Below are positions 958 to 58,159 of a DNA stretch of 64,000 nt, piece after piece. The position numbers and the translations under genes are program-made. The number at the start of each line of letters is the position of its first letter. Within the stretch, counting starts at the first letter, position 1. The DNA is from an uncultured Lentisphaerota bacterium. Lineage in GTDB: Bacteria; Verrucomicrobiota; Kiritimatiellia; RFP12; UBA1067. The stretch is from positions 1,325 to 65,324 of the forward strand of contig ONRL01000001.1 of the NCBI GenBank assembly GCA_900320225.1. The letters run 5' to 3'. Under the pieces are notes generated by a model that saw only the letters and a program-made list of their open reading frames with translations, had not been told where the DNA came from and searched no databases.

Positions 958-1002
958 TCGTCTTTCCTTTCATTGGGATGACCTCGCAAGTATAACAAAT
1001 TA

Positions 1003-1011
1003 TGGTATAAT
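1003..1011 (+). promoter_or_regulatory. extended -10 promoter (TGGTATAAT) for the hydrolase gene, probably leaderless
   Basis: TGGTATAAT matches TGnTATAAT and ends 6 nt before the ATG at 1018. There is no room for a Shine-Dalgarno sequence. Confidence 0.45.
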
Positions 1012-1017
1012 GCGCGC

Positions 1018-2751: not shown

Positions 2752-2760
2752 AGTATATCA
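2752..2760 (-). promoter_or_regulatory. candidate extended -10 (TGATATACT) upstream of tRNA-Leu
   Basis: The reverse complement of 2752..2760 is TGATATACT, ending 12 nt upstream of the tRNA 5' end at 2739. It has the same TGnTATAnT style as other promoters in the window. Confidence 0.3.
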
Positions 2761-3984
2761 CAATCCCGGGTCCGGCGACAGCAGGCGCGGCAGAACTTTC
2801 GCGAGCGGATAGCGCCCTTCAGCGTCCGGATCTAGGCCCTTCAGGCGGAGACGCACCACGCGCGGGGGATGCGCGCGGTCGGCGAACTGTCCGGCGCGGA
2901 TCTGCGCCGTCGTCTGGTAGACGAAATCCACGGACACGCGGTCAAGGCCGTCATCGCACCGCCAGCGTCCGAGGACGATCTTCGAGCCGATGGGCGTGCG
3001 GCATTCGACCGCGCCGGGCAACTCGTACGGCTCCACGTCAAGCTGCGCCCCCATCCATGCGAGCGTGGTGTCGTGCCCGCCCAGGAACGTGAGGCGGGGT
3101 TCACCACGGCGCAGGGGCTCGGCCAGTTCGGGGAGGAGCTTCGCGCCGAGCGCGGCGGACATCGCCTTCGTCCGGTAGCGCATGTCAATGTAGACTTCCT
3201 TGACATCGCCGATGAGACGCCAACCCGACCACGAGAGAGGATAGCCAAACGAGGCGGCGGGGGAGGCATCCTCGTACAGCTGGAGCAGGAGGGAGTCCGC
3301 CACGGGATAGGCTTCGCCGATCGGACCATGGAGCCCGATGGAATTCGGCGGACGCACGAGATCGAAATAACTCACGCCCGTGGAGGCAAACGGCGCGGCG
3401 CCCGGACGGCTTCCGCGCGGCGAGCTGGGATAGTCGATGATGCGGCCGAGGAGCGCGTAGGCAGGTGCGAGCTGACGGTCGAGTCCCCCTTCGCCGCCCA
3501 TCATCTCGGCGATCTGACGGTAGACGCGGTTCGAGAGCGCGGCGTCGGCTTTTGGCACGCCGATGGAGAAGCGCGAGTCGCGCGGGCCGTCAAAAGGCAG
3601 GTGTTCGACCACGACGTCCGCCTCAGGCATGAAGCCGGCGGCGAAACAGCGCGCCGTGGCAACGGTCCGCTGCATGTTGTTGGCGAAGAAATGCACGTGG
3701 TCGGGCGTAAGACGCGCGTTCCGTTCACAGAGGCCCTCCTCCACGAGCCAGTCGCGGAACCAGCCGCCCATCGCGGTTTCGAGCGCGGCGCCCTTCCGCG
3801 AGAGCTCGCCGGGCGCGGACGTCCAGGTGAACCACGTGTTCGTCGTCGACTCGCGAAGATCCTGCACGGCCGTATCCAGCGGCGCACGCAGGTTATGCCG
3901 GCTCACGATCACAATCTGGCGTAGTTCCGCCGCCCAGCTTCCAGACGCCGCGACGATCGCAAAAACACACAGAAACTTCTTCAT
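2758..3984 (-). CDS. histidine acid phosphatase family (branch 2) protein, secreted
   Basis: 408-aa ORF with a signal peptide (MKKFLCVFAIVAASGSWA). It has the catalytic RHxxRxP motif as VSRHNLRAP and the downstream HD motif in GGHDTTLAW. Confidence 0.7.
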   Translation of the reverse strand: MKKFLCVFAIVAASGSWAAELRQIVIVSRHNLRAPLDTAVQDLRESTTNTWFTWTSAPGELSRKGAALETAMGGWFRDWLVEEGLCERNARLTPDHVHFFANNMQRTVATARCFAAGFMPEADVVVEHLPFDGPRDSRFSIGVPKADAALSNRVYRQIAEMMGGEGGLDRQLAPAYALLGRIIDYPSSPRGSRPGAAPFASTGVSYFDLVRPPNSIGLHGPIGEAYPVADSLLLQLYEDASPAASFGYPLSWSGWRLIGDVKEVYIDMRYRTKAMSAALGAKLLPELAEPLRRGEPRLTFLGGHDTTLAWMGAQLDVEPYELPGAVECRTPIGSKIVLGRWRCDDGLDRVSVDFVYQTTAQIRAGQFADRAHPPRVVRLRLKGLDPDAEGRYPLAKVLPRLLSPDPGL

Positions 3985-5397: not shown

Positions 5398-6047
5398 GGT
5401 TCGGAAATGAGCGATTGCCCTCCATCCACGGGGATGACCGCACCCGTGGTCGATTCGGCCGAGAGAAGAAAGACGACTGCGTCGGCGACTTCCTGCGGCG
5501 TGGGATGCCGACCGAGCGGCGTCGCGCCGGCACGTTCGTGACACGTCTCGGGCGGCAACACGGGACCTGGCGCGACGGCGTTCACGCGCACGCGCCCAGC
5601 AAGGCGGAGAGCGTCCGCGCGCGTCGCGGCGAGCAGTTCACGCTTTGCGCGGAGATAGGGCGTATCGTCGGCGCGCGCCGCGCCGAGCGCACGACAATCG
5701 ACGATGTTCACGACCGCGCCGCCACCATGCGCGGCGAGCAATTCCGTCAGCGCACGCGGTGCGTCCACGTTCACGGCGCGAAGGCGTACCTCTTCATCCG
5801 GCGGCGGTTTCACGTCGTGCGAAAAGATTCCGGCGTTGTTCACAACGGCGCAGAGGTCGGGGGCGGCGGCGCATGCGGCGGAGAACAGCCGCGCGGGGCC
5901 ATCCGGCTCCGCAAGGTCGACCGCGAACGCGGCATCGGAGGACGTGCGCGAGGCGGCGATCACGTTCCAGCCGCATGCGCGAAGTGCGTCGGCGATGGTC
6001 TTTCCAAGGCGGCGCGCACCGCCAGTCACGAGAACGGTCCCTTTCAT
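5394..6047 (-). CDS. short-chain dehydrogenase/reductase (SDR) family oxidoreductase
   Basis: From MKGTVLVTGGARRLGKTIA (TGxxxxxG Rossmann), then NNAG, YLRAK (YxxxK) and PGPV. The start at 6047 lies 5 nt after the stop of the upstream gene. The longer track ORF (to 6425) overlaps the TrmH gene. Confidence 0.75.
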   Translation of the reverse strand: MKGTVLVTGGARRLGKTIADALRACGWNVIAASRTSSDAAFAVDLAEPDGPARLFSAACAAAPDLCAVVNNAGIFSHDVKPPPDEEVRLRAVNVDAPRALTELLAAHGGGAVVNIVDCRALGAARADDTPYLRAKRELLAATRADALRLAGRVRVNAVAPGPVLPPETCHERAGATPLGRHPTPQEVADAVVFLLSAESTTGAVIPVDGGQSLISEP

Positions 6048-6933: not shown

Positions 6934-7713
6934 TCAGCGGGTTCCCTGCTGAAGCAGTTTGTTCAGCTCGTCCGCCTTCTCCATCTCCTTGCGGTGCTCG
7001 ATGATCTGGGGCGAGTCCGTGCGGTTTTCGACCAGCTCGTCGCAGATTTCGCGGCTCAGGTAGTTGATGCCTTTGGCGCGCAACTTCCTGAGAAGATCCG
7101 CCCCGTCGTCCGCGTCGCGTATCGCCTCGGGCAACATCGCCAGCAAGGCACGTGCCATTCGCGGCGCCACGCTCACGGGTGCGTACCGCGAACCGAAGAA
7201 GATCACGTAGCCTTCACGAAGGCGGCGGTCAAGGTACGACCGCCGGTCGTTGATGCGCTTCAGCAGCCGCTTCGACTGCTCGTTCGGCGTGAAGTCGACG
7301 TCCTCGGCGGCATTCGCCGCCGCCGGGGCGGCGGTCTTGGCCGGCGCGACCGGCGGCGCATCCGCAAACAGGTCGTCCACGCTCTGCGCCGGACGGGCCG
7401 GCGCCGGGGCGGCGGGTTTCGCCGCGGCTGCGGCCGCGCCGCCCTGCGTGGCGAGGAACGTCTTCCACGGGACAATCTGTCCCGTGATCTGCGTGTTGTA
7501 ATTGACGAATAACGCCGTGCCCGAACGCATGAGCACGTAGGGCGGCTTCACGTAATGCCCGTTCACGAACACCATGCCCGTGCGTATCGCCTTGCCCTTC
7601 ACGGCCTTCAACGCCTTATTGGCGGCGGCCGGAACCTCTTCGAACTGCGGCGTTGCTGCGCCGACGGCCAACGCCAACGCGCCAATCAAACCAATCACGG
7701 CTTTCACTTTCAT
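6934..7713 (-). CDS. hypothetical exported protein
   Basis: The ORF is on the same strand and tightly packed with its neighbours. The start is set at MKVKAVIGLIGALALAVGAA (signal peptide), preceded by AAGGAAGG. It has an Ala/Pro-rich middle and no family was recognised. Confidence 0.5.
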   Translation of the reverse strand: MKVKAVIGLIGALALAVGAATPQFEEVPAAANKALKAVKGKAIRTGMVFVNGHYVKPPYVLMRSGTALFVNYNTQITGQIVPWKTFLATQGGAAAAAAKPAAPAPARPAQSVDDLFADAPPVAPAKTAAPAAANAAEDVDFTPNEQSKRLLKRINDRRSYLDRRLREGYVIFFGSRYAPVSVAPRMARALLAMLPEAIRDADDGADLLRKLRAKGINYLSREICDELVENRTDSPQIIEHRKEMEKADELNKLLQQGTR

Positions 7714-9047: not shown

Positions 9048-9671
9048 TCATTTTCCTTTCGCTGATGTTTTTATGTTGGGTTCGGCGATGGACCTCACCA
9101 TCGCCGAAAAGCGGAGCTTGGATTTCTCGGCATCGAGCTCGACACCGAGCAGGATGCGCAGGACGACGCTCTCGAGGAGCGCAAAAAGGACTTCCGAGGT
9201 GAGGCGTGGATCGACGCGCGCCGACAGCTCGTTCCGGCGCGCGCCCTCCTCCAGCAGGCGGAGGAACAATTCGCGAAGCCCCCCCGTGAACCGGGCGATG
9301 CGCGCGCGCATGTCCTCGCCGCGGCGTACCATGTCGATCACGAAGGCGTAAATGGCCAGAAGGAACTGCTTCCGCTCGAAGAGCGTGTCGATCACGGTGT
9401 CCGCCACGCGGTTGAGGCGCTCCGGCACCGGCAGAGGCTGCCTGGCGATCGCGGTGGACGCCTCTTTGATCGCGTGCGTGCAACCGTGGATGGCTTCGTC
9501 GAATATCTCCCGCTTCGTCTTGAAATAGCGGTACAATGCGGTGCGCGCCACGCCCGTCGACTCGGAGATCGTGAGGAACGAGACCTTGGCATAGCCCATC
9601 TGGGCGAACAGTCCCATAGACCGTTCGACGATGAACTGCCGACGTGCGGCGTGATCAATGCGCTTTGCCAT
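9048..9671 (-). CDS. TetR/AcrR-family transcriptional regulator
   Basis: N-terminal HTH: RRQFIVERSMGLFAQMGYAKVSFLTISESTGVARTALYRYFKTKREIF. Confidence 0.85.
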   Translation of the reverse strand: MAKRIDHAARRQFIVERSMGLFAQMGYAKVSFLTISESTGVARTALYRYFKTKREIFDEAIHGCTHAIKEASTAIARQPLPVPERLNRVADTVIDTLFERKQFLLAIYAFVIDMVRRGEDMRARIARFTGGLRELFLRLLEEGARRNELSARVDPRLTSEVLFALLESVVLRILLGVELDAEKSKLRFSAMVRSIAEPNIKTSAKGK

Positions 9672-9682
9672 GTGCGTTTGTT

Positions 9683-9691
9683 AGTATAGCA
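9683..9691 (-). promoter_or_regulatory. extended -10 (TGCTATACT) for the TetR operon
   Basis: The reverse complement of 9683..9691 is TGCTATACT, 11 nt upstream of the TetR ATG at 9671. This implies a near-leaderless transcript. Confidence 0.4.
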
Positions 9692-9722
9692 TTTTTGACG
9701 CGACAGGGCTAGTGAGAACTGC

Positions 9723-12434
9723 CTAGCGAATCTCAAGCGTGAGTAGTATGGGCTGGGCGCTGGTCTGGAGGTCCACGGCCATCACGTTGCCGAAGAACCT
9801 GAACGGCACCGGCTGGCCGTTCGCCTTGACGGCGGCGGGCTTCTGCACGCGCGAGAAGAACACCTTGTACGGCGCTTTCGGCCAGGCAGCGATCTCGACG
9901 CGCGCGAGCTCGCCCGCCTGCGGCTTCCGGGCCGTGGCGCGCCCCGGCACGTGGACGAGCGTCTTGCCGCCCGCCACGGCGCGGGCCACGCGGTAGAACG
10001 GCAGACCGATGAAGTTGCTCACGTTCCCCTGCACGGTGCCCGGGTTGATCGGCGGCTCGCGGCGCACCTGTTCGACAAGCGCGAAGGAGTCCGGCAGCAG
10101 CCCCACCTTCTCGCCGTCGCTTGGCAGGTAGCTCTGGTCCACGCCGCTCGCCGTGATGCCCTTCGCGAGGTGCCGCCACAGGGCCGCCAGCCCCGCATCC
10201 GTCTCAATCTCCGCGAGGTCGACGAGCGCGGCAGAGTAGACGAGCCCGCACCACTGGACGGGCAGGCCGATCCAGTTGGGGGCCGCCCAGTTCGTCGCGC
10301 CCATGACGCCGATGGTGGCGTAGCGGCCGACGGGATTCGGCGCGTCCGTGGGCGGATCGACGAAGTAGATCATCGTCATGCCGGTGCGCGCCCAGTAGCG
10401 CGCCCGCTCAAGGTAGCGCGGATTGCCGGAGAGGAGGTAGCCGTTCACGTAGCACGCCACCAGATGGCCGGAGGCGAGGATGTCCGGCGTGTGGAGCGGC
10501 ATCTCCCACGGTTGCGCGCCGCGCGGCACGTCGTTGCCGTAGATTTCCGTGAACTTGTCGAGGACCGCGAGCGTCTCGGCGATCAGGCCCTCGTCGCCCG
10601 TCCAGAGCGCGCAACCGAGCATGCCGCTCGCCTGCATGGCCGTGTAGCCGTTGCAGTGGTCGGCGCCAAGCGTCTCGCCGTAGTCGGGCTTCTTGTCGGC
10701 GGGCTTGCGCCAGATGCGCTTGCCGCCCGCGAGCTGGCGCGCGAGGCCCTTCGCGGTGCCGCCCGCCGAAATGGCGTAGGCGATCGGGTCGCCGAACACG
10801 AGCGGCGCGGCCGGACGGCGCACGTGCGACACGCCGCCGCCCCAGCCCTTCCGCTCGACGGATTTCTCGGGCAGCGCCGCGATCATCTCGTTTGCGGCGG
10901 ACGACAGGCGCGCGGCGGATGCGGCGTCCGGCGTGGTCGCCGCCAGCCAGAGCATGAAAGCGGGCACGTCGGAGACGCGGCCCGCATGCCACCGCGAGCC
11001 AAGGGCGTGACGGCAGCCATTCGCGCCGTCGCGAATGCCGGACTCAAGCCAGCCGCGCGTGAGCACGTCGCAGGCCTTGGCGGTTTCGAGCGCGGGCGTG
11101 GGCGGAAGTCGCTTGAGCGGATAGCGCGCCGTCAGCACGTCCACCACGTCGCCGCCCGCGCCCGTCGAAAGCGTGGTCTCGACCACGCCCGACGAGAACG
11201 GCACGGAGGAGAATAGGCGCATGTCGCTCTCGCGCCGCGCCGCGCCGATGCCGGGCGCCCAGAGCGCGAAGAGGTGTCCGCCCGACTTGAACTGTCGGTC
11301 GGGCGTGTCGAAGACGGGGGCGAACGGCCATTCCGTATCCTTGGGCTGCGTCCACTCGAACGCGAACCAGCTGGAGGCGTCGGTGAGCGCCATCAGCGGG
11401 TAGCAGAACTTGTGCGCGGCGGGGATGAGGCGGTTCGCCTGCGGTCCGCGCACTTCCTTCTCGTTGGAGGAGGGTTCGTCGGCAAGGTACTCGATGCCAG
11501 GCAGGAGCGCCTGCGTTTTGTGTCCGTTCGAGGCGCGGTCGACGAAAAGGGTCATGTAGGGAACGTGATACACATGCGCGGGGCGGTCGACCGCGACGGC
11601 GGTACGTACGTTCAGAGTCGTACCTGCGGCGGCGAACGTGCGCGACCAGGTCCAGGTGCGTCCGGCGGAGTCCTTCACCGTGGCGCACGCCTCGACACGC
11701 GAACCGATCGTCTGTACCTTTGTTGCGCCTTTCTCCCAGGCGAGCGTCTCGGGCTTGCCGTCAGGCCCCTTGATCACAAACGGCTCGTTCGGGTAACCTT
11801 CCGCCCACGTCTTGCCGTTGGCGACGAAGGCGAACGCGCCCATGCGAGCGCGGTCGTGGCGCAGCTCCCAGCTGTCGCCCTTCAGGACGAACGGATCTGC
11901 GGCGAACGCCAGTGGCGGCGGGGCGGAGAATTGGGGCGTCCATTCGGCCGTTACGTACGAGGCGCGCAGGTGGCGGTACTCGACGGAGGTGAACGTCTCG
12001 GTCTTTCCGGGCGGGTCGATGCGCAGCGCCATCGCCTCAGGGCCGATGAGCCCGACGGGCAGCTCGACGGCGAACTTCGAGCAGGGCGCGGGGCCGACGG
12101 GCTCAAGGCGCGCAGCCTCCAGCTCGTTGAAATACCCCTTCTGCGGGTGCCAGAAGATCTGGAACGAGCGTGGGGCGGCGATGGGCGCGGTCTCCAGCTC
12201 GATGCGGAGGTACGCGGCGCCGGGCGGCGGCGCGGGCATCGCGTAGGTGGCGTGCGCGACGCACCAGGGGTCGACGCCCGTCACGTCGAACGAATAGCCG
12301 GTCGCGGTCTGCCGCGCGTTCGCCACGTGGTTGTGCGCCCGCCAGGGATGTCCGGCGCGCGAGAAGTCGACGAGTTCGCTCGCCATCGCGGTTCCCGCCG
12401 CGAGCGCGGCGATGCCCAGAAACAATTTTTTCAT
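9723..12434 (-). CDS. large secreted protein of unknown function
   Basis: 903-aa ORF with a signal peptide (MKKLFLGIAALAAGTAMA) and codon bias consistent with its neighbours. No family was recognised by eye. Confidence 0.6.
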   Translation of the reverse strand: MKKLFLGIAALAAGTAMASELVDFSRAGHPWRAHNHVANARQTATGYSFDVTGVDPWCVAHATYAMPAPPPGAAYLRIELETAPIAAPRSFQIFWHPQKGYFNELEAARLEPVGPAPCSKFAVELPVGLIGPEAMALRIDPPGKTETFTSVEYRHLRASYVTAEWTPQFSAPPPLAFAADPFVLKGDSWELRHDRARMGAFAFVANGKTWAEGYPNEPFVIKGPDGKPETLAWEKGATKVQTIGSRVEACATVKDSAGRTWTWSRTFAAAGTTLNVRTAVAVDRPAHVYHVPYMTLFVDRASNGHKTQALLPGIEYLADEPSSNEKEVRGPQANRLIPAAHKFCYPLMALTDASSWFAFEWTQPKDTEWPFAPVFDTPDRQFKSGGHLFALWAPGIGAARRESDMRLFSSVPFSSGVVETTLSTGAGGDVVDVLTARYPLKRLPPTPALETAKACDVLTRGWLESGIRDGANGCRHALGSRWHAGRVSDVPAFMLWLAATTPDAASAARLSSAANEMIAALPEKSVERKGWGGGVSHVRRPAAPLVFGDPIAYAISAGGTAKGLARQLAGGKRIWRKPADKKPDYGETLGADHCNGYTAMQASGMLGCALWTGDEGLIAETLAVLDKFTEIYGNDVPRGAQPWEMPLHTPDILASGHLVACYVNGYLLSGNPRYLERARYWARTGMTMIYFVDPPTDAPNPVGRYATIGVMGATNWAAPNWIGLPVQWCGLVYSAALVDLAEIETDAGLAALWRHLAKGITASGVDQSYLPSDGEKVGLLPDSFALVEQVRREPPINPGTVQGNVSNFIGLPFYRVARAVAGGKTLVHVPGRATARKPQAGELARVEIAAWPKAPYKVFFSRVQKPAAVKANGQPVPFRFFGNVMAVDLQTSAQPILLTLEIR

Positions 12435-12469
12435 CCTGTTACTCCTGATTCTTCGTTCACTTGCCGCAA

Positions 12470-12478
12470 ATTATAGCA
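12470..12478 (-). promoter_or_regulatory. extended -10 (TGCTATAAT) upstream of the 903-aa gene
   Basis: The reverse complement of 12470..12478 is TGCTATAAT, about 35 nt upstream of the ATG at 12434, with CAGGAG as the RBS. Confidence 0.4.
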
Positions 12479-12562
12479 TATTCTCCCGCTCCCTTGATCG
12501 AAAACTCATGCACAAATCCTAAGTCGACGACATCCTCAACATGGTCACTCGACACGTTCCCG

Positions 12563-12594
12563 AAAAAAACGGAAAGCCCCGAGATGGGGCTTCC
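12563..12594 (-). terminator. rho-independent terminator, probably the original terminator of tRNA-Arg now stranded at attL
   Basis: On the minus strand the sequence is GGAAGCCCC-ATCTC-GGGGCTTTCC followed by GTTTTTTTCGGG. It lies immediately downstream (minus sense) of the orphan tRNA 3' fragment. Confidence 0.6.
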
Positions 12595-12600
12595 CGCTTC

Positions 12601-12628
12601 ATTGGTGCGACTGACTGGGATCGAACCA
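12601..12628. repeat. attL core: orphan 3' fragment of tRNA-Arg (28-bp exact direct repeat)
   Basis: ATTGGTGCGACTGACTGGGATCGAACCA is identical to 57943..57970. It corresponds to the CCA, acceptor and T-arm of the tRNA-Arg gene. Confidence 0.9.
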
Positions 12629-12695
12629 AGGCCCCGGGGTTCTGGGGGTGGTTTTTCGGGGGTTTTTCGCTCATTTCCTTTATTGTTTTCCTTCT

Positions 12696-12717
12696 TTGTA
12701 TCATATTCTGTATCATA
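12696..12717 (+). repeat. candidate integrase arm-type site (P' arm), tandem GTATCATA pair
   Basis: TTGTATCATATTCTGTATCATA matches 57861..57882 at 21 of 22 positions. It lies 68 bp inside attL. Confidence 0.55.
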
Positions 12718-12732
12718 AAAACCAGCGGGGAG

Positions 12733-13026
12733 TTAGCGTGGATTCTTGACGAAGTAAAACAGACCGGCTATTGAGATTCCAACCCACGCGACTGCGAAGA
12801 CTTTTACAGCTAGCTTTGCGGACTTCGAGGCATCCTCATACCATGTCAGCCAGAGCGGACATGGGAAAGGAAAGAGCGCGGCGAAGTATGGCAAGGCGAT
12901 GATTATGCTCGACGGCATTGGGATCTTCTTGCACACCAGGACAACTAACCCGAGCACAAAGCTCCACAAAATGGCCAAAAGCCATAGTGGTAGAATAGTA
13001 TTGAGAGGGTCGTTGTCAGAACTCAT
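12733..13026 (-). CDS. small 3-TM membrane protein (moron-like, low GC)
   Basis: MSSDNDPLNTILPLWLLAILWSFVLGLVVLV... has three hydrophobic helices and visibly lower GC than the flanks. The start is set at ATG 13026, directly downstream of a TGGTATACT extended -10. Confidence 0.6.
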   Translation of the reverse strand: MSSDNDPLNTILPLWLLAILWSFVLGLVVLVCKKIPMPSSIIIALPYFAALFPFPCPLWLTWYEDASKSAKLAVKVFAVAWVGISIAGLFYFVKNPR

Positions 13027-13032
13027 GCGGAT

Positions 13033-13048
13033 AGTATACCACACCCCC
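13033..13048 (-). promoter_or_regulatory. leaderless extended -10 promoter (GGGGGTGTGGTATACT)
   Basis: The reverse complement of 13033..13048 is GGGGGTGTGGTATACT, and the -10 ends 6 nt before the ATG at 13026. It matches the block at 14098..14113 at 14 of 16 positions. Confidence 0.5.
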
Positions 13049-13083
13049 CTTCTAGGCGGATGAAAAAAAGTGGGAAAAAGTGC

Positions 13084-13112
13084 TTGAGGTGGTACACACC
13101 TTTTGATAGACT
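13084..13112 (+). promoter_or_regulatory. candidate early rightward promoter (TTGAGG -17 bp- TGaTAGACT)
   Basis: -35 TTGAGG is at 13084..13089, followed by a 17-bp spacer, TG at 13104..13105 and -10 TAGACT at 13107..13112. It lies about 45 nt upstream of the first + strand gene (13158). Confidence 0.45.
13086..13100 (+). promoter_or_regulatory. operator-like repeat copy 1 (GAGGTGGTACACACC) overlapping -35/spacer of the early promoter
   Basis: The same 15-16 bp sequence recurs at 13514..13529 and 13560..13575. It is an imperfect palindrome GGTG-GTAC-A-CACC. Confidence 0.5.
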
Positions 13113-13157
13113 ATGCGCCCGGAAGCACAAATCAGGTTTCCGCAACCCTAAGAAAGG

Positions 13158-13403
13158 ATGATTCAGATGGCCAATCAAGAGAACGGAGAAGTGAAGCAAC
13201 TCAAGCTTCGCATTCCCATGGAGCTATATGTTCAGCTCGAAATAGACGCTGCGGTTCACAACGAGCCGCCGGCCACTCGCGCACGCCATATTCTCGGCGA
13301 CCAGCTGATGAATGTGCCGTTGAGCGCTGCTGCCAAGGAGCGTGTCAAGGAACTCGTCGCACAGAACTGGGCGAAGATTCGTAAGGGGGAGGGCAACAAA
13401 TGA
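13158..13403 (+). CDS. small DNA-binding protein, ribbon-helix-helix-like
   Basis: 81 aa. KQLKLRIPMELYVQLEIDAAVHNEPPATRARHILGDQL fits a beta-strand/helix/helix RHH pattern. It is the first gene after the early promoter. Confidence 0.45.
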   Translation: MIQMANQENGEVKQLKLRIPMELYVQLEIDAAVHNEPPATRARHILGDQLMNVPLSAAAKERVKELVAQNWAKIRKGEGNK

Positions 13404-13585
13404 ATCGAGTAATCATCGTAGATGTCCCGGCGTGGATGCAGGATAAACTCGCCCAGATCGCAACAATCTGTGGCGAGAGCATCGACTATGTTGCCGCGTC
13501 TTTTTTTGCCGCAGAGGTGGTACACACCCAAGGCGCGGCAGCGGCTTCTTTTTGCCCGAGAGGTGGTACACACCCGAACGCCTAA
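13400..13585 (+). CDS. small protein, possible ribbon-helix-helix
   Basis: ATGA overlap with the previous gene. VIIVDVPAWMQDKLAQIATICGESIDYVAASFFAAE is RHH-like. Its 3' third is occupied by two operator-like repeats, so the true C-terminus is uncertain. Confidence 0.35.
   Translation: MNRVIIVDVPAWMQDKLAQIATICGESIDYVAASFFAAEVVHTQGAAAASFCPRGGTHPNA
13514..13529 (+). promoter_or_regulatory. operator-like repeat copy 2 (GAGGTGGTACACACCC)
   Basis: It is part of a ~28-bp unit TTTTTGCCGCAGAGGTGGTACACACCC that is repeated 46 bp downstream. Confidence 0.45.
13560..13575 (+). promoter_or_regulatory. operator-like repeat copy 3 (GAGGTGGTACACACCC)
   Basis: It is part of the unit TTTTTGCCCGAGAGGTGGTACACACCC. 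Confidence 0.45.
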
Positions 13586-13676
13586 CGAATGGAGGAAAAC
13601 GATGAGCTTTGAGACGGAAGACAGGTTAATGACGGCGGCGATGTTCATGTTGCTTGTCGGCGCTGCCATGGCGTTT

Positions 13677-14090
13677 CTAGGACTTGGCGTACTGGCGATC
13701 AGAGCCGCCTTCGGTGAATTCGGATCCGTCGGCAAGGCGGATGGACGCGAGGCCGTCGAATCCGCTGCCGCAGGAAAAGATCGCATGGCCGCCGGGCTGG
13801 ACGGTACGGACGGGAGCGGAATCGTCGGCCCCAGCAAGGAAATCCGGTTCAAAGGCACGTCCACCAACGCGCAACTCGATCACCGTGAAGGCGACGTGTC
13901 CGATGTTCGACACGACCACCTCGCGGTGGTAACTCCCTCGACTGATCCTGGTAGTTACGGACGCCTTCGGGATGTCCCGAAGCTCCTGCCGACGAATGGA
14001 ACGCCAGGAGAGGCAAGCCGCGATTACGGAGCCGAGGGCAGCAAGGGCTGTGCCGCCCGCCATGACCCATTGGACAAGAGAGTTTTCCAT
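13677..14090 (-). CDS. N-terminally anchored membrane protein with small beta-rich ectodomain (moron-like)
   Basis: MENSLVQWVMAGGTALAALGSVIAACLSW (TM) is followed by VVVSNIGHVAFTVIELRVGG...GGHAIFSC. The ATG at 14090 is 7 nt downstream of TGGTATAAT, within a block 14/16 identical to the promoter of the 12733..13026 gene. It competes with an antisense + ORF (13602..14123). Confidence 0.55.
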   Translation of the reverse strand: MENSLVQWVMAGGTALAALGSVIAACLSWRSIRRQELRDIPKASVTTRISRGSYHREVVVSNIGHVAFTVIELRVGGRAFEPDFLAGADDSAPVRTVQPGGHAIFSCGSGFDGLASIRLADGSEFTEGGSDRQYAKS

Positions 14091-14097
14091 GGCGGAG

Positions 14098-14113
14098 ATT
14101 ATACCACAACCCC
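14098..14113 (-). promoter_or_regulatory. leaderless extended -10 promoter (GGGGTTGTGGTATAAT)
   Basis: The reverse complement of 14098..14113 is GGGGTTGTGGTATAAT, and the -10 ends 7 nt before the ATG at 14090. Confidence 0.5.
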
Positions 14114-14139
14114 GAACGAATAGGAGGACGGTATACGGT

Positions 14140-14271
14140 ATGATGATTACGCAGAAGGAAATGAAGCGGGCGCTTGACCGGATGCAGCCGTGGAAGCTCA
14201 CCGACATGCGCAAGATGCCCAGTGGGCGGATCGTGCGGTTCGTCAACTGGAAGAAACTCGCGGGCAAGTAA
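14140..14271 (+). CDS. hypothetical small protein (43 aa)
   Basis: AGGAGG lies 12 nt upstream of the ATG at 14140, and there is a TAATG overlap with the next gene. The longer track ORF (13972..) would overlap the divergent promoter. Confidence 0.4.
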   Translation: MMITQKEMKRALDRMQPWKLTDMRKMPSGRIVRFVNWKKLAGK

Positions 14272-14672
14272 TGACGGCGAAGGAGATAAAGGAGGCGCTG
14301 GCCAGGGCAGCGCGCAAGGCATGGCCGAGAGTGGCCAAGGCCAGCGACCTCCCCTTCCCCGACTACTGGCGCAACAAGGTGGAATGGCTCACCTTCCATG
14401 CGCCGCACATCGGCGACAGGATGATGCGCGTGCTCATCGAGGATGCCGTGCGCGACGCCGTGCTCGCGGAGGCCGCAGGCAAGGAGCCCGTTTGTCCGCC
14501 GGTGCCCGCAAGCGTCAAGAAGATTTGGGAAAACCATGCCCTCGCTGGGCCGGCGAAGCCGGCGAGCCTGACCGATAGCTCAAATGTTGCCACTCGCGGT
14601 GACGGTGGGAGAGACCACGATTCAACAGCAAGCGTACGACAGCAAGTAATGGAACAAGGGAGGCTGCTGTGA
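14271..14672 (+). CDS. hypothetical protein
   Basis: 133 aa from MTAKEIKEALARAARKAW. It is translationally coupled on both sides. No family was recognised. Confidence 0.5.
   Translation: MTAKEIKEALARAARKAWPRVAKASDLPFPDYWRNKVEWLTFHAPHIGDRMMRVLIEDAVRDAVLAEAAGKEPVCPPVPASVKKIWENHALAGPAKPASLTDSSNVATRGDGGRDHDSTASVRQQVMEQGRLL
14625..14646 (+). repeat. 22-bp conserved motif copy 1 (ACAGCAAGCGTACGACAGCAAG)
   Basis: One of four near-identical copies, all on the + strand. Here it is read as T-A-S-V-R-Q-Q, 23 nt before the next gene start. Confidence 0.8.
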
Positions 14673-15046
14673 GCGAGGCGGCGAGCGAGATCTTCGGCGC
14701 GCGGGAAAGGCCCTACGACTACCGCTGGGGCACGCCCGTGCAGGTGAACGAGCAGTTCGGGATCAGCGCGGCGTCGCTCAAGGCCGCCTGGGCCCGTGGC
14801 TGGGTGCGCGCGCGTCAGGGCAACTGGGTGAGCGACGCGAAGCGCACGCAGACGATCTACTGCTTCGAGGACATCCACGGCTGGCTGGAGCGCGTCGCGC
14901 ACCGCGTGACGAAAGTCTACGCCGAGACGTTCTGGACGGACGAGACCGTGGCGGAGATGGCCGAGAAGACGCCCGACGGGCCGTACATGCGGCGGGCCAC
15001 GCTCGGTCGGAAAGACGGCTTCCCGAAACTTCCAAGGAAGGTATAG
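14669..15046 (+). CDS. helix-turn-helix DNA-binding protein (excisionase/AlpA-like pattern)
   Basis: 125 aa with a GTGA overlap start. VQVNEQFGISAASLKAAWARGWV...TIYCFEDIHGWLE resembles MerR-superfamily Xis/AlpA HTH domains. Confidence 0.4.
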   Translation: MSEAASEIFGARERPYDYRWGTPVQVNEQFGISAASLKAAWARGWVRARQGNWVSDAKRTQTIYCFEDIHGWLERVAHRVTKVYAETFWTDETVAEMAEKTPDGPYMRRATLGRKDGFPKLPRKV

Positions 15047-15048
15047 GC

Positions 15049-15249
15049 ATGAAACCACAGACACAGACAACAGAGATGACGATCCACATCAAGATCCCGG
15101 TCGGATGGTACGAGGGGCTGCGCAGGCTCGCCGACCAGGTCGAGGGCACGATCCACCAGCAGACGCGTCTCGCGATCCGCGAGCGCCTGGAGCGGACCGG
15201 CGCCGACTTTTTCGCCGGAAACGGCATGAACAACAAACTGGAGAACTAA
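15049..15249 (+). CDS. ribbon-helix-helix protein
   Basis: 66 aa. TIHIKIPVGWYEGLRRLADQVEGTIHQQTRLAIRERLE is a good strand-helix-helix pattern, and a GGAAGG RBS precedes it. Confidence 0.5.
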   Translation: MKPQTQTTEMTIHIKIPVGWYEGLRRLADQVEGTIHQQTRLAIRERLERTGADFFAGNGMNNKLEN

Positions 15250-15252
15250 ACA

Positions 15253-16371
15253 ATGAAAGCTACGATAGCAAGGAGCCTGCTCGCAGAAGCGGCCCAAGCA
15301 GTCAAGGGGCTCGTCGCGAAAGACGGGCTCAGCGCGTTCAGCAAGATCAGGCTGGACGTGAGCGGCGACGCGTCGGTGACGGGCTCGAACGGAGACATCC
15401 AGGTCGAATGGCGCATGGCCTGCGAGATCATCGACCGTGGGACGGTGACCGTGCCCGGCGCGGCGTTCGCGGCGTTCGTCGGCGCGATGCCGGAGGGCAA
15501 GGTCGAGATGGAATTGGCCAATCACAAATTGGCCATAGAAGGCAACGGAGTGAAGTTCAAGCTCGCGGCAGGCGAGGCGGCCGACTTCCCCGTGATGGCC
15601 GGTCCGAAGGAGGGCGCTAGGCTGGGTATCACCTCGACGCTCCTGTACGAGATGCTGCGAAAGGTGAAGTTCGCCGTCTCGGCGGACGATACGCGCAAGT
15701 CGCTCACGGGCGTGAACATCGCCTTTAAGGACGGGCTGCTCGGCATGACGGCGACGGACGGGCGGAGGCTCGCGCACGTGGAGAAGGATTTGGATGAGGA
15801 CGATGAGGCAGAGGCAGGCCGCCTCGGCTTCAACTTCACGCTTCCGATGAAGGCCGTGGGCACGCTGTACGGGCTACTGGAGAAGATGGCGGGGAGCGGC
15901 GACCTCGTGCAGATCGCATCGGACGGAAAGGCCGTGCGGTTCGTCGGCGACTTCTGGATCATGACGGCAAAGGTGATTGACGAGATTTATCCGAACTGGC
16001 GGAAGGTCGTGCCGGAGAAGCAACCGCACCAGGCGGAGCTGAAGCGCGCGGCGTTCCTCGCGGCGCTGGGCCGCGCGGCGCTCGCAAGCCAGGAGGTGAG
16101 CGGCGTGAAGATCACGCTGAAGAACACGAGCGCCGTGTTCGAGGCGAGGAACGAGATCACGGCGGCGAACGCGGGCACGGCGGCCTGCAAGATGGACGAG
16201 GGCGTGAAAGGCGAGTTCCGCGTGAACCCGCGCCTGATGAAGGACGCGCTGGAGTCGATCGACGAGGACGACTTCACGCTCCACTTCGACGACGGCAACG
16301 GGACGCCGATCAAGCTGACGTGCTCGCTGCCATGGGTGGCCGTGGTCATGCCATTCAGGAAGGAGGGCTGA
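15253..16371 (+). CDS. dnaN: DNA polymerase III beta sliding clamp (phage-encoded)
   Basis: 372 aa. LLAEAAQAVKGLVAKD..., LKFAVSADDTRKSLTGVNIAF and LGMTATDGRRLA are typical DnaN blocks, and the length is that of a three-domain clamp. Confidence 0.85.
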   Translation: MKATIARSLLAEAAQAVKGLVAKDGLSAFSKIRLDVSGDASVTGSNGDIQVEWRMACEIIDRGTVTVPGAAFAAFVGAMPEGKVEMELANHKLAIEGNGVKFKLAAGEAADFPVMAGPKEGARLGITSTLLYEMLRKVKFAVSADDTRKSLTGVNIAFKDGLLGMTATDGRRLAHVEKDLDEDDEAEAGRLGFNFTLPMKAVGTLYGLLEKMAGSGDLVQIASDGKAVRFVGDFWIMTAKVIDEIYPNWRKVVPEKQPHQAELKRAAFLAALGRAALASQEVSGVKITLKNTSAVFEARNEITAANAGTAACKMDEGVKGEFRVNPRLMKDALESIDEDDFTLHFDDGNGTPIKLTCSLPWVAVVMPFRKEG

Positions 16372-16374
16372 GGG

Positions 16375-17085
16375 ATGAGTGAAGAGGTACAGACGCCTGA
16401 CGAGGCCGAGGGCTTCTCGGAAAAGGAGAGGGCTGCGAACAGGCCCGGAACGGAAAAGCGCGACTGGGTGGAGGAGGCCTATCAGTGCTTCATTAAGGAC
16501 GCGCAGGGGATTGACCCGACGGATCCCGTGAAGGCAGTCGAGGCGTACTTTCAGAAGAACGCGACTGACGAGCTGAAGGCCAAATGCAAGGCCGAGGGCA
16601 AGGACGCCAAGGGATGCTGGAGGTTCATCGAGGCTGTGGCGCGGAAGGCGTTGCACGGATCGAGCGGCCACATCGACCCGGCCGTGGTGTATGCGATCGC
16701 CATGCACTGGTTCGAGGATGTGCCGGTGGACTGGAACATGCCGAAGGTATTGGGGAAGGCGTCCGAGCCGAAGAAGACAGCAAGCGTACAACAGCAAGAT
16801 TCTGGACCGAAGAAGAAGCCGAAGAAGCCGGCGGAGACGCCTTCCGAGAAGCGGAAGGAGAAGGAGCGTATGGCCAAGGCGAAGGCCAAGTCCAAGGCGA
16901 AGAAGCCGCGCGCGCAGCAGGGCTTCTTCTTCGAGATGCTTGAAATGCAACCGGGTGAACAAAAGCCATGTGGTTCACCCTCGCCCCAGGCGTCGGCGGG
17001 CGCGTCAGGGGAAGAGAATGCCGTGGCGCTCAGCGCACAGCCCGCTTCAACTTCTTCAACGGAAAGCGAGGTGCAGAATGGTTAA
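16375..17085 (+). CDS. PcfK-like protein (family that includes anti-CRISPR AcrIIA9)
   Basis: AYFQKNATDELKAKCKAEGKDAKGCWRFIEAVARKAL...IDPAVVYAIAMHWFEDVPV parallels the PcfK-like core (..DELFAK..EGK....C..YI.........D.E.Y..A.HYY.ED). It has a Lys/Glu-rich C-terminal tail and lies in the same block as a PcfJ-like gene, two genes downstream. Confidence 0.55.
   Translation: MSEEVQTPDEAEGFSEKERAANRPGTEKRDWVEEAYQCFIKDAQGIDPTDPVKAVEAYFQKNATDELKAKCKAEGKDAKGCWRFIEAVARKALHGSSGHIDPAVVYAIAMHWFEDVPVDWNMPKVLGKASEPKKTASVQQQDSGPKKKPKKPAETPSEKRKEKERMAKAKAKSKAKKPRAQQGFFFEMLEMQPGEQKPCGSPSPQASAGASGEENAVALSAQPASTSSTESEVQNG
16777..16798 (+). repeat. 22-bp conserved motif copy 2 (ACAGCAAGCGTACAACAGCAAG)
   Basis: It lies inside the PcfK-like gene and is read as T-A-S-V-Q-Q-Q. 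Confidence 0.8.
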
Positions 17086-45169: not shown

Positions 45170-45171
45170 CG

Positions 45172-57860: not shown

Positions 57861-57882
57861 TTGTATCATATTCCGTATCATA
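57861..57882 (+). repeat. candidate integrase arm-type site (P arm), tandem GTATCATA pair
   Basis: TTGTATCATATTCCGTATCATA matches 12696..12717 at 21 of 22 positions. It lies 61 bp inside attR, between int and the core. Confidence 0.55.
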
Positions 57883-57942: not shown

Positions 57943-57970
57943 ATTGGTGCGACTGACTGGGATCGAACCA
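57943..57970. repeat. attR core (within intact tRNA-Arg)
   Basis: It is identical over 28 bp to 12601..12628. Confidence 0.9.
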
Positions 57971-58021
57971 GCAACCTTCGGCTTCGGAGGCCAACGCTCT
58001 ATCCAGTTGAGCTACAGTCGC
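57945..58021 (-). tRNA. tRNA-Arg (anticodon CCG), CCA encoded
   Basis: The reverse complement GCGACTGTAGCTCAACTGGATAGAGCGTTGGCCTCCGAAGCCGAAGGTTGCTGGTTCGATCCCAGTCAGTCGCACCA gives a 77-nt cloverleaf. It has acceptor GCGACTG/CAGTCGC, anticodon loop CTCCGAA (CCG) and T-arm GCTGG-TTCGATC-CCAGT. Confidence 0.92.
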
Positions 58022-58159
58022 ATTATTTCCAATGGTTTTTGATGTTTGTTGCCAATTTGATGCCAAATCGCGTCGGCCAGATACATCTCAAACCTTCCGA
58101 AAACTTGCCTTTTCCTTCGGTTGCGGAGTAGTTTACCACATTCCCTTTCGGTTTGCAAG

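What the first reader, a model, noticed from the sequence alone, without database searches (positions are those of the whole stretch)
12733..14113. Two minus-strand membrane-protein genes with near-identical leaderless promoters: candidate lysogen-expressed exclusion/defence genes
Almost all prophage genes are on the + strand. The exceptions at the left end are a low-GC 3-TM protein (12733..13026) and an N-anchored beta-rich protein (13677..14090). Each start codon sits 6-7 nt downstream of an extended -10 embedded in a shared 16-nt block. The blocks are GGGGGTGTGGTATACT and GGGGTTGTGGTATAAT, identical at 14 of 16 positions. With no room for an RBS, both should be leaderless mRNAs made from host-type promoters, independently of the lytic programme. 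This is the classic signature of morons such as superinfection exclusion, receptor masking or abortive infection genes. Neither protein resembles a family I recognise.
Basis: partly seen in the sequence, partly recalled or inferred. Interest (0 to 1): 0.62.

Follow-up and report, generated by a model that had tools for sequence, protein, structure and literature searches.

The report
Two leaderless prophage membrane-gene cassettes
Two small membrane-protein genes at the left end of a prophage in a rumen Kiritimatiellae bacterium are optional add-on cassettes, each driven by a copy of the host's tRNA-type promoter and read without a leader, which is normal for this host; their likely job, keeping other phages out, is untested.

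Summary
Gene A (12733-13026, minus, 97 aa, three hydrophobic helices, 50% GC) and gene B (13677-14090, minus, 137 aa, one N-terminal helix plus a beta-sandwich) each start 6-7 nt after TGGTATAMT inside a shared block.

Both genes are real. B has homologs under purifying selection (dN/dS 0.18-0.62), and all of them keep TATAAT-N7/8-ATG. A's one variant copy differs by three synonymous changes and one non-synonymous change.

The host is an uncultured Kiritimatiellae bacterium. In 529 kb of its relatives' DNA, 33 of 91 such -10 motifs lie 6-9 nt before a start codon, so leaderless expression is routine there. The shared block is the host's tRNA-promoter consensus: GGGNNTGTGRTAWAMT occurs four times in the window, before tRNA-Leu, tRNA-Arg, A and B.

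Contigs from other metagenomes show that both genes are optional cassettes. B with its promoter (543 bp) is cleanly absent from some relatives. The A slot holds at least five other cargo genes in relatives.

So both are classical morons. Expression in the lysogen and an exclusion or defence role remain inferred. No known family matches either protein. I rate this a new member of a known kind, of moderate interest.

The parts
12733..13026 (-). Gene A: 97 aa, three predicted transmembrane helices, 49.7% GC. Cargo of the attL-proximal accessory slot.
   Evidence: It is the only open frame here. Three hydropathy peaks. The identical protein is called in 3 other contigs (P0004). The X7/X9/X28 variant has 3 synonymous and 1 non-synonymous change.
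13027..13048 (-). Gene A promoter: -10 TATACT (13033-13038), TG of the extended -10 (13040-13041), G-run upstream, and the 6-nt ATCCGC before the ATG.
   Evidence: In X8 the block from 13033 upwards is kept while the cargo differs. L099/L100 have GGGGGGTATGATATACT-N7-ATG in front of a 314-aa cargo.
12737..13054 (.). A cassette as delimited by a natural swap: coding sequence plus promoter, 318 nt.
   Evidence: An X12 contig replaces exactly 12737-13054 with 569 other nt.
13677..14090 (-). Gene B: 137 aa, N-terminal membrane helix plus an Ig-like beta-sandwich, predicted N-out/C-in.
   Evidence: Homologs at 28-67% identity. dN/dS 0.18-0.62. Frame test. Structure model with pLDDT 72. Flank charges in 9 members.
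14091..14113 (-). Gene B promoter: -10 TATAAT (14098-14103), TG (14105-14106), GGGGTTG upstream, and the 7-nt CTCCGCC before the ATG.
   Evidence: TATAAT-N7/8-ATG is kept in all B homologs. Relatives diverge just upstream of the hexamer, at 14103/14104.
13597..14139 (.). B cassette as delimited by a natural deletion or insertion: 543 nt.
   Evidence: An X8 contig of 7.4 kb joins 13596 to 14140 with 7 nt (TGAGATG) between. The same joined form is seen in an RNA-library contig of X23. X7, X6 and X28 phages also lack B.
13602..14123 (+). + strand ORF that spans the B cassette. Mostly a shadow of B, but its first 25 codons (13602-13676) look conserved as a hydrophobic peptide.
13084..13112 (+). 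Probable early promoter TTGAGG-17-TGATAGACT with operator GGTGGTACACACC (13088-13100; the 15-nt repeat GAGGTGGTACACACC spans 13086-13100) in its spacer.
   Evidence: Read. L001 has the same layout. The promoter is inferred: it falls below the consensus scan threshold.
13514..13574 (+). Two further operator copies, at 13514-13528 and 13560-13574.
13167..13403 (+). Ribbon-helix-helix-like regulator gene between A and B (78 aa).
   Evidence: The gene at the corresponding position in L001 gives a marginal RHH_1 match, E 6.5e-4. The window protein has no Pfam hit.
12601..12628 (.). attL, the 28-bp copy of the 3' end of tRNA-Arg. attR is at 57943-57970.
2752..2767 (-). Host tRNA-Leu promoter GGGATTGTGATATACT, the same 16-nt class as A and B.
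58130..58145 (-). Host tRNA-Arg promoter GGGAATGTGGTAAACT, same class.

Best explanation
A and B are two independent, optional single-gene cassettes (morons) in a roughly 45-kb temperate phage integrated in tRNA-Arg of a rumen Kiritimatiellae bacterium.

Each cassette carries its own copy of the host's strong tRNA-type extended -10 promoter (GGGnnTGTGrTAwAmT). The promoter sits so that transcription should begin at, or within a base or two of, the A of the ATG. The host RNA polymerase can therefore make these mRNAs without any phage factor, and the ribosome reads them without a leader, as it does for many genes of this host. The genes should thus be made in the lysogen while the + strand lytic genes are shut off by the repressor-operator system that lies between them.

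Both products go to the cytoplasmic membrane. A is a small three-helix protein. B is a single-pass protein whose Ig-like domain hangs on the cytoplasmic face. The most likely job is to protect the lysogen from other phages at the membrane step, that is superinfection exclusion by blocking genome entry, as with HK97 gp15 or P22 SieA.

Shown here:
- both genes are real;
- promoter placement and its conservation;
- the promoter is of host type;
- cassette boundaries and optional presence;
- membrane-protein character.

Inferred:
- the transcription start;
- expression in the lysogen;
- the topology;
- the anti-phage role.
For: Gene reality:
- B-frame substitutions are 17-33 synonymous against 25-61 non-synonymous codons. 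The antisense frame gives 2-9 against 42-77.
- dN/dS for B is 0.18-0.62.
- A's variant copy has 3 synonymous changes and 1 non-synonymous change.

Promoter:
- TATAAT-N7/8-ATG is kept in every B homolog, down to 28% protein identity.
- The scan for a -10 motif (TGnTAnnnT or TAYAMT), 5-8 nt, a start codon and an ORF of at least 40 aa finds no site in the prophage other than A and B; of the stricter TGnTAWAMT motif there are also only these two.
- GGGNNTGTGRTAWAMT occurs four times in the window against 0 expected: tRNA-Leu, tRNA-Arg, A and B. The same block precedes tRNA-Trp in another Kiritimatiellae genome.
- In 529 kb of Kiritimatiellae DNA, 33 of 91 such motifs lie 6-9 nt before a start codon, with a peak at 7 nt. 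A -10-like signal about 10 nt before the start codon is the accepted mark of leaderless genes (PMC3160421).

Cassette status:
- X8 lacks 13597-14139 cleanly.
- X12 swaps 12737-13054.
- X8 keeps the A promoter with a different cargo.
- X28 has A but not B.
- The A slot holds 178-, 314-, 66+193- and 488-aa cargo in relatives. The 178-aa, 314-aa and 488-aa (read) products have hydrophobic stretches. One cargo matches the defence protein PD-T4-9_A at E 1.3e-6.
- A has 50% GC against 64% for the phage.

Membrane location and topology: hydropathy peaks. In all nine B-family members the N-flank net charge is -1 or 0 and the C-flank +2 to +5.

B's core (residues 46-114) is a divergent allele between near-identical flanks (dS 0.91 against 0.16). 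This fits a specificity-determining surface.

Weak RNA hint: in one rumen metatranscriptome, the only two pieces of at least 100 nt over 20 kb of phage both lie on B.
Against: - No 5'-end or strand-specific RNA data exist. One of the two RNA contigs runs 56 nt upstream of the ATG, so it is not a leaderless B transcript. It may be DNA carry-over or a + strand transcript.
- No terminator was found behind either gene. Textbook morons have one (PMC3594210).
- B's GC content (62.6%) does not differ from the phage.
- B sits at the same place in divergent relatives. That would also suit a phage life-cycle gene.
- There is no sequence or confident fold match to any known exclusion or defence protein.
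- A cytoplasmic Ig-like domain is unusual.
Confidence: 0.5

Rival explanations
1. Lysogenic-conversion genes that help the host for reasons unrelated to phages, for example envelope stress, transport or colonisation of the rumen niche. They would be expressed as described but have no effect on phage infection.
For: The same cassette and promoter evidence applies. Morons often carry such genes (PMC3594210). There are no defence-family matches.
Against: A related phage carries a PD-T4-9_A-like protein in the A slot. Small membrane proteins next to the immunity region are most often exclusion genes in studied phages; I did not test that here. B's allelic core suggests a changing partner.
Confidence: 0.2
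2. B serves the phage's own lysis-lysogeny control. A tRNA-strength promoter fires against the early operon between the operators and the replication genes, so it acts through transcriptional interference or antisense RNA. B protein could add a membrane-linked input.
For: - B's promoter converges on the probable early promoter about 1 kb away.
- There is no terminator behind B.
- B holds a constant position in divergent relatives, and is duplicated in L012.
- The + strand stays purine-rich through B.
Against: - Phages with the same backbone lack the cassette altogether, so it is not needed for lysogeny.
- The protein itself is under purifying selection, so transcription alone is not the point.
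Confidence: 0.15
3. Membrane-damaging effectors: abortive-infection or toxin-like small hydrophobic proteins, or holin/antiholin-like lysis timers. This applies mainly to the three-helix protein A.
For: A's size and three-helix layout resemble class-I holins and small membrane toxins; this comes from my general knowledge.
Against: Constitutive expression of a toxin from a strong promoter would need an antidote, and none is seen in the 318-nt cassette. A lies far from the structural and lysis end of the phage. There is no PHROG match.
Confidence: 0.1
4. The + strand ORF 13602-14123, which has a good ribosome-binding site, is the real gene and B is its shadow.
For: GGAGGA lies 5 nt before the ATG. 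The codon-usage score equals that of B. Gene callers chose it in several assemblies. Its first 25 codons change conservatively.
Against: - Substitutions fall on B's third codon positions, for example 19/11/43 by position. The + frame shows 6 synonymous against 52 non-synonymous codons.
- The + frame is broken by stops in L011 and L013, while B is intact everywhere.
- An open antisense frame is expected in 58% of windows of this size in this phage.
Confidence: 0.03

Closest known systems
Phage morons, type case HK97 gene 15 (PMC3594210)
   Same: Extra DNA that is absent from close relatives. A single gene with its own host-type promoter, inserted between genes of a phage operon (B) or at the genome end (A). 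The product is a small inner-membrane protein. A has deviant GC content.
   Different: No terminator was found. B's GC content matches the phage. The mRNAs are leaderless. The promoter copies the host tRNA promoter class. The host is a Kiritimatiellae bacterium. No phenotype is known.
Membrane superinfection-exclusion proteins: P22 SieA (PMC10883804); lactococcal Sie2009 and T4 Imm from my own knowledge
   Same: Small prophage-borne membrane proteins encoded beside the immunity region and transcribed opposite to, or apart from, the lytic genes.
   Different: No sequence similarity. Function is untested. B's folded domain is predicted to be cytoplasmic and Ig-like.
Lambda cI mRNA from PRM (own knowledge), and leaderless genes of Actinobacteria and Deinococcus-Thermus (PMC3160421, PMC12340547)
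   Same: The -10 element lies about 7 nt before the start codon, so the transcript begins at the AUG. This is used for a lysogen-expressed phage gene.
   Different: Here it is the host's general habit, not a peculiarity of the phage gene. The products are membrane proteins, not repressors.
Prophage-mediated defence genes of actinobacteriophages, for example Butters gp30/gp31 (PMC7542560) and Sbash (PMC6426596)
   Same: Variable accessory genes near the immunity/integration region, expressed in lysogens and often membrane proteins, in hosts rich in leaderless mRNAs.
   Different: Unrelated sequences and an unrelated host phylum. No experimental evidence here.
DUF11/DUF7507 Ig-like repeat domains, and helix-plus-sandwich proteins such as archaeal type IV pilins and FlaG
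   Same: The strand motif VVSNxGxVA is shared. The overall shape is an N-terminal helix plus a beta-sandwich.
   Different: The match is limited to about 25 residues (hhalign probability 2.6%). Foldseek E is about 1e-3 and TM 0.43. There is no prepilin-peptidase site. B has a single domain, and that domain is predicted to be cytoplasmic.

Membership tests
Moron (independent accessory transcription unit in a phage genome) | Extra DNA that is absent from otherwise similar phages | tested here: met
   B: X8 joins 13596 to 14140. X7, X6 and X28 also lack B. A: X12 swaps 12737-13054 and X8 has a different cargo. Other cargo sits in L001, L011, L099 and L103.
Moron (independent accessory transcription unit in a phage genome) | Own promoter recognised by host RNA polymerase | tested here: met
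   Met at the sequence level only. The extended -10 is of the host tRNA-promoter class and is conserved in all B homologs. Transcription was not measured.
Moron (independent accessory transcription unit in a phage genome) | Own terminator | tested here: not met
   No terminator-like hairpin lies on the minus strand behind A or B. Folds of the 3' flanks are no better than shuffled sequence (z +0.66 and -0.36).
Moron (independent accessory transcription unit in a phage genome) | Base composition differs from neighbouring genes | tested here: inconclusive
   A has 49.7% GC against 63.6% for the prophage, so the feature is met. B has 62.6%, so it is not met.
Moron (independent accessory transcription unit in a phage genome) | Expressed from the repressed prophage | not testable with these tools
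   Only sparse, unstranded contigs from RNA libraries were available.
Leaderless (TA-led) bacterial genes | TANNNT -10 element about 6-8 nt before the start codon, and no Shine-Dalgarno site | tested here: met
   Host-wide spacing peaks at 7 nt. The criterion is taken from PMC3160421.
Leaderless (TA-led) bacterial genes | Mapped transcript 5' end at the start codon | not testable with these tools
   No raw-read or 5'-enriched RNA run holds the locus.
Known superinfection-exclusion or defence protein families | Sequence or profile match to a described family | tested here: not met
   PADLOC, PHROGs and Pfam give nothing significant for A or B. tblastn against 50,697 phage records finds nothing.
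Known superinfection-exclusion or defence protein families | Membrane location | tested here: met
   Prediction only: hydropathy peaks of 1.7-2.7 for A (three) and 1.94 for B (one). Charge bias is consistent across 9 B-family members.
Known superinfection-exclusion or defence protein families | Blocks infection by a challenging phage | not testable with these tools
   Host and phage are uncultured.
DUF11 / CARDB-like Ig repeat domain (for B) | Profile match above the family threshold over the domain | tested here: not met
   B has no Pfam hit. The B profile touches DUF11 and DUF7507 repeat proteins at E 1.6e-9 and 3.2e-4, through short stretches. hhalign aligns 25 columns with probability 2.6%.
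Type IV pilin-like proteins (for B) | Class III signal peptide with a prepilin-peptidase cleavage site before the hydrophobic helix | tested here: not met
   The N-termini are MENSLVQW, MEVN and similar, with no basic residue followed by G/A before the helix. The fold match is weak.

The most novel reading that the evidence does not exclude
The B cassette may be a two-faced switch module. From the minus strand, a tRNA-strength leaderless promoter makes membrane protein B in the lysogen and fires head-on into the early operon, just before the replication genes. From the + strand, the early transcript translates a conserved hydrophobic peptide. This peptide is the first 25 codons of the ORF that spans the cassette exactly, from the displaced ribosome-binding site to the next gene. 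One piece of DNA would then give different membrane products in lysogeny and in lytic growth, and would also gate replication-gene expression by convergent transcription.
Probability: 0.1. Interest if true: 0.65.

Novelty: new member of a known kind. Interest (0 to 1): 0.35.

Why it matters
Kiritimatiellae are abundant, mostly uncultured gut and rumen bacteria, and their phages and gene-expression signals are almost unstudied.

This locus gives a clean, comparatively supported example of how their temperate phages carry accessory genes. A hot-swappable slot lies next to attL. A second cassette sits inside the early operon. Both are wired to a copy of the host's tRNA-type promoter and read without a leader.

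The work also has a practical annotation lesson. Gene callers chose a downstream ATG for B in seven of the eight L001-L008 loci, or chose the antisense ORF, because they expect a ribosome-binding site.

If A or B proves to block phage entry, B would define a new exclusion family built on a membrane-tethered cytoplasmic Ig-like domain.

The finding does not open a long-standing question. Without a cultured host it will be slow to test.

Tried and rejected
- Family searches for A, B and their neighbours in Pfam, PHROGs and PADLOC found nothing significant.
- tblastn of A and B against INPHARED phages found nothing. blastn of 12600-16400 against phages found nothing.
- IMG/VR scans with A, B and the DnaN-like protein found nothing.
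- A scan of GTDB representative genomes with a B-family alignment found nothing.
- A JGI metagenome scan with DnaN returned only five short contigs, which were of no use for the left arm.
- The DUF11 link was rejected as family membership. The pilin-like reading was rejected because there is no cleavage motif and the fold score is weak. A lipobox reading of IAAC in B was rejected because the Cys is not conserved.
- I recalled a resemblance between the 488-aa cargo of L103 and Mrr-type nucleases. Pfam and PADLOC did not confirm it, so I dropped it.
- I considered that the shared block is an operator for the phage repressor. I rejected this for three reasons: the same block precedes host tRNA genes; it travels with B in phages of other immunity types (L007, L012); and the operator GAGGTGGTACACACC does not match it within 3 mismatches.
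- The open + frame across B is not special. 58% of comparable windows in this phage are open.
- Loose ends at 12696 looked like an excised attP joint. They are better explained by the repeated TGTATCATA motif near the integrase end.
- RNA libraries gave only sparse contigs with no strand or 5'-end information.
Full report
**1. What is in the sequence**

The window holds a prophage of about 45 kb. It is bounded by a 28-bp direct repeat, at 12601-12628 and 57943-57970, which is the 3' end of tRNA-Arg(ccg) at 57945-58021. The integrase lies at 56696-57817 on the minus strand (Phage_integrase E 8e-21, phrog_1 E 3e-40). Primase, large terminase, a head-tail adaptor family match (phrog_332), major head and tail genes are all on the + strand.

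At the left end the minus strand reads GGGGGTGTGGTATACT-ATCCGC-ATG (start at 13026) and GGGGTTGTGGTATAAT-CTCCGCC-ATG (start at 14090). The similarity extends to 22 nt at 86%.

The whole window has only eight TGnTAWAMT motifs. Six are in host DNA. The only two in the prophage are these. A scan for a -10 motif, 5-8 nt, a start codon and an ORF of at least 40 aa finds just A, B and host gene 1018-2655.

**2. Are the two genes real?**

Gene A (97 aa) is the only open frame at its place. It has three hydropathy peaks and 49.7% GC against 63.6% for the prophage. In 5.8 billion proteins it has only identical copies. A variant copy in three other metagenomes (one search lists three of the four changes) differs by three synonymous changes and one non-synonymous change.

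Gene B needed a real test. A + strand ORF (13602-14123) with a good ribosome-binding site overlaps it completely, and the two frames score alike on codon usage. B has homologs at 52-67% identity. Across them, changes fall on B's third codon positions, for example 19/11/43 by position. That gives 17-33 synonymous against 25-61 non-synonymous codons in B's frame, but 2-9 against 42-77 in the + frame. dN/dS for B is 0.18-0.62. The + frame is broken by stops in two relatives, while B is intact in all ten. An open antisense frame is expected in 58% of windows of this size in this GC-rich phage. B is therefore the gene.

**3. What the proteins look like**

Neither protein matches Pfam, PHROGs, PADLOC or any of 50,697 phage records.

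An exhaustive profile search of 1.84 billion representative proteins found only eight B-profile matches at E <= 0.001. Six are small proteins of 130-146 aa with the same layout. The other two are giant DUF11/DUF7507 repeat proteins, touched only through the strand motif VVSNxGxVA (hhalign 25 columns, probability 2.6%).

The AlphaFold model built on nine sequences has pLDDT 72. It shows a helix at residues 3-38 followed by a seven-strand sandwich. Foldseek finds only generic helix-plus-Ig-like shapes, such as archaeal pilins and FlaG, at E about 1e-3 and TM 0.43, and uncharacterised phage proteins at best E 2e-4.

In all nine family members tested, the stretch before the helix has net charge -1 or 0 and the 15 residues after it +2 to +5. 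By the positive-inside rule, the folded domain lies in the cytoplasm. This is a prediction.

The window's B has near-identical flanks but a strongly divergent core compared with L001: dS is 0.16 for residues 1-45 and 0.91 for residues 46-114. It is an allelic, mosaic domain.

**4. The promoters are the host's own kind**

The host is an uncultured Kiritimatiellae bacterium. The MiaB-like protein at 4024-5544 is 80-91% identical to proteins of rumen and gut MAGs with that label.

In the 529 kb of Kiritimatiellae DNA fetched that way, 33 of 91 TGnTAWAMT motifs lie 6-9 nt before an ATG or GTG that opens at least 80 codons. The counts are 9, 15, 5 and 4 at 6, 7, 8 and 9 nt. A -10-like signal at that distance is the accepted mark of leaderless genes (PMC3160421). 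Leaderless expression from extended -10 promoters is therefore routine in this host, not a mark of morons.

The 16-nt block is also not private to the phage. GGGNNTGTGRTAWAMT occurs four times in the window against none expected. The four sites precede tRNA-Leu (2752-2767), tRNA-Arg (58130-58145), A and B. The tRNA-Leu promoter even continues ...TATACTATCC, as A's does. Each of A and B matches the tRNA-Leu promoter at 13 of 16 positions; A matches the tRNA-Arg promoter at 13 of 16 and B at 12 of 16. A and B match each other at 14 of 16. Other Kiritimatiellae genomes carry GGGTTTGTGGTATAAT or GGGTTTGTGGTATACT, once directly before tRNA-Trp.

I conclude that A and B use copies of the host's strong tRNA-type promoter. 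That fits factor-independent, probably high, expression.

**5. Conservation of the leaderless start**

Every B homolog keeps TATAAT, then 7 nt (8 in one case), then ATG. The list is:

- L001-L005 (TGCTATAAT-ctccgcc-ATG)
- L006
- L007 and L008
- L009 (TGGTATAAT-ccccggc-ATG)
- L010
- L011 (TGGTATAAT-cgctgac-ATG)
- both tandem copies in L012
- L013
- L099-L103

Protein identity among them falls as low as 28%.

Gene callers usually missed this start. In L001-L005, L007 and L008 they chose a downstream ATG. Elsewhere they chose the antisense ORF.

The sequence upstream of the hexamer comes in at least two types: GGGTTGTGG and TTTGC. Joints between the types fall just upstream of the hexamer, at 14103/14104.

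**6. Both genes are optional cassettes**

Contigs from other metagenomes, laid on the window, give natural deletions and swaps.

- A 7.4-kb contig in X8 joins 13596 directly to 14140, with TGAGATG between. The 543 nt that hold B and its promoter are cleanly missing, and the ribosome-binding site GGAGGA then serves the next + gene.
- The same joined form appears in X23. X6, X7 and X28 phages also lack B.
- X12 replaces exactly 12737-13054, which is A plus its promoter, with 569 other nt.
- X8 keeps A's promoter from 13033 upwards but has 482 other nt in place of the coding region.
- X7, X9 and X28 have A joined to a different immunity region.

In assembled relatives the slot next to attL holds other cargo:

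- a 178-aa anchored protein behind TGCTATACT-N8-ATG (L001);
- a 314-aa multi-helix protein behind GGGGGGTATGATATACT-N7-ATG (L099);
- a 66-aa plus a 193-aa gene, the latter matching the defence protein PD-T4-9_A at E 1.3e-6 (L011);
- a 488-aa protein (L103).

This meets the core definition of morons (PMC3594210): extra DNA with its own promoter, and for A a deviant GC content. Two textbook features are missing. There is no terminator behind either gene. B's GC content equals that of the phage.

**7. The setting between the two genes**

Between A and B lie a ribbon-helix-helix-like gene at 13167-13403 and a 61-aa gene. The gene at the corresponding position in L001 gives a marginal RHH_1 match at E 6.5e-4.

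A 15-nt repeat, GAGGTGGTACACACC (core GGTGGTACACACC), occurs three times, at 13086, 13514 and 13560, against 0.74 expected within 3 mismatches. The first copy lies in the spacer of a probable early promoter, TTGAGG-17-TGATAGACT (my reading; it is below the threshold of the scan). Relatives keep the layout with other palindromes. This looks like the immunity switch.

In phages without B, the two downstream operators sit directly before the first replication-operon gene. Phages without B keep this switch, so B is not needed for it.

**8. Mechanism and its rivals**

Best reading, at 0.5 overall. I put about 0.75 on 'optional cassettes expressed by host polymerase as leaderless mRNAs in the lysogen' and about 0.35-0.4 on 'their job is anti-phage'. 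Under this reading the two membrane proteins are made constitutively in the lysogen and act at the cytoplasmic membrane, most likely against incoming phage genomes, as HK97 gp15 and P22 SieA do (PMC3594210, PMC10883804).

Rivals:

- Host-benefit conversion genes unrelated to phages (0.2).
- A role of B's convergent promoter and protein in the phage's own switch (0.15). B-less phages and selection on the protein argue against this.
- Membrane toxin, abortive-infection or holin-like roles, mainly for A (0.1).
- The + ORF as the true gene (0.03).

**9. RNA evidence**

No run gives strand or 5'-end information. In one rumen metatranscriptome (X22), the only two pieces of at least 100 nt over 20 kb of phage lie on B, at 2-3x depth. 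One of them runs 56 nt upstream of the ATG, so it cannot be a leaderless B transcript. I count this as a hint at most.

**10. Verdict**

This is a new member of a known kind, involving one new small protein family (B) and one orphan (A) in a poorly known phylum. Interest is 0.35.

Noticed in passing
L014-L093 (529 kb of Kiritimatiellae MAG DNA); window 1002-1020: Leaderless mRNAs from extended -10 promoters look like a general habit of Kiritimatiellae. 33 of 91 TGnTAWAMT motifs lie 6-9 nt before a start codon, with a peak at 7 nt. Host gene 1018-2655 (an S15 peptidase) is one of them.
   Followed up: partly
window 13084-13112, 13514-13528, 13560-13574; L001 5754-5801 and 6218-6231; L006 5219-5266 and 5669-5685: The immunity region has three copies of a 13-nt near-palindrome. 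One lies in the spacer of the probable early promoter and two lie before the replication genes. Relatives keep the layout but use different palindromes (GGTATGCCCTACC, AGGTTTCAGAAACCT, GGCGTTTAACGCC), which suggests different immunity types.
   Followed up: partly
window 13602-13676 (+), continuing to 14123: The + ORF that spans the B cassette starts 5 nt inside its left edge and ends 17 nt before the next gene. Its first 25 codons encode a hydrophobic helix and change conservatively between relatives (AGG to AAA gives R to K; TTA to ATC gives L to I). It may be a real lytic-phase peptide.
   Followed up: partly
window 13677-14090: B's third codon positions are 69% pyrimidine, against 47% in the integrase, the other minus-strand gene. 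The + strand therefore stays purine-rich through B. I have no explanation.
   Followed up: no
L012 5452-5889 and 6013-6441: One 45.9-kb relative carries two B-family genes in tandem. Each has its own -10 element 7 nt before the ATG. The gene caller started the second one inside its -10 hexamer.
   Followed up: partly
window 12697-12717 and 57862-57870; L001 about 6985-7010: TGTATCATA occurs three times against 0.04 expected: twice just inside attL and once between the integrase gene and attR. It is conserved in L001. These are probably integrase arm-type binding sites.
   Followed up: partly
window 45166-56709 (+): A single ORF of 3,847 aa fills the last 11.5 kb of the prophage before the integrase.
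   Followed up: no
window 12435-12733: No minus-strand terminator lies between gene A and attL. A's transcripts could run out of the prophage toward the host's 903-aa secreted-protein gene (9723-12434), which also has its own TGCTATAAT promoter at 12470-12478.
   Followed up: no
L011 8312-8893: In a related phage the accessory slot holds a 193-aa protein that matches the PADLOC model PD-T4-9_A (E 1.3e-6). It sits behind a 66-aa leaderless gene (TGCTATAAT-N7-ATG).
   Followed up: partly
window 9672-9700: The host TetR-family gene (9048-9671, minus) has TGCTATACT 11 nt before its ATG. Its leader would be very short or absent.
   Followed up: no
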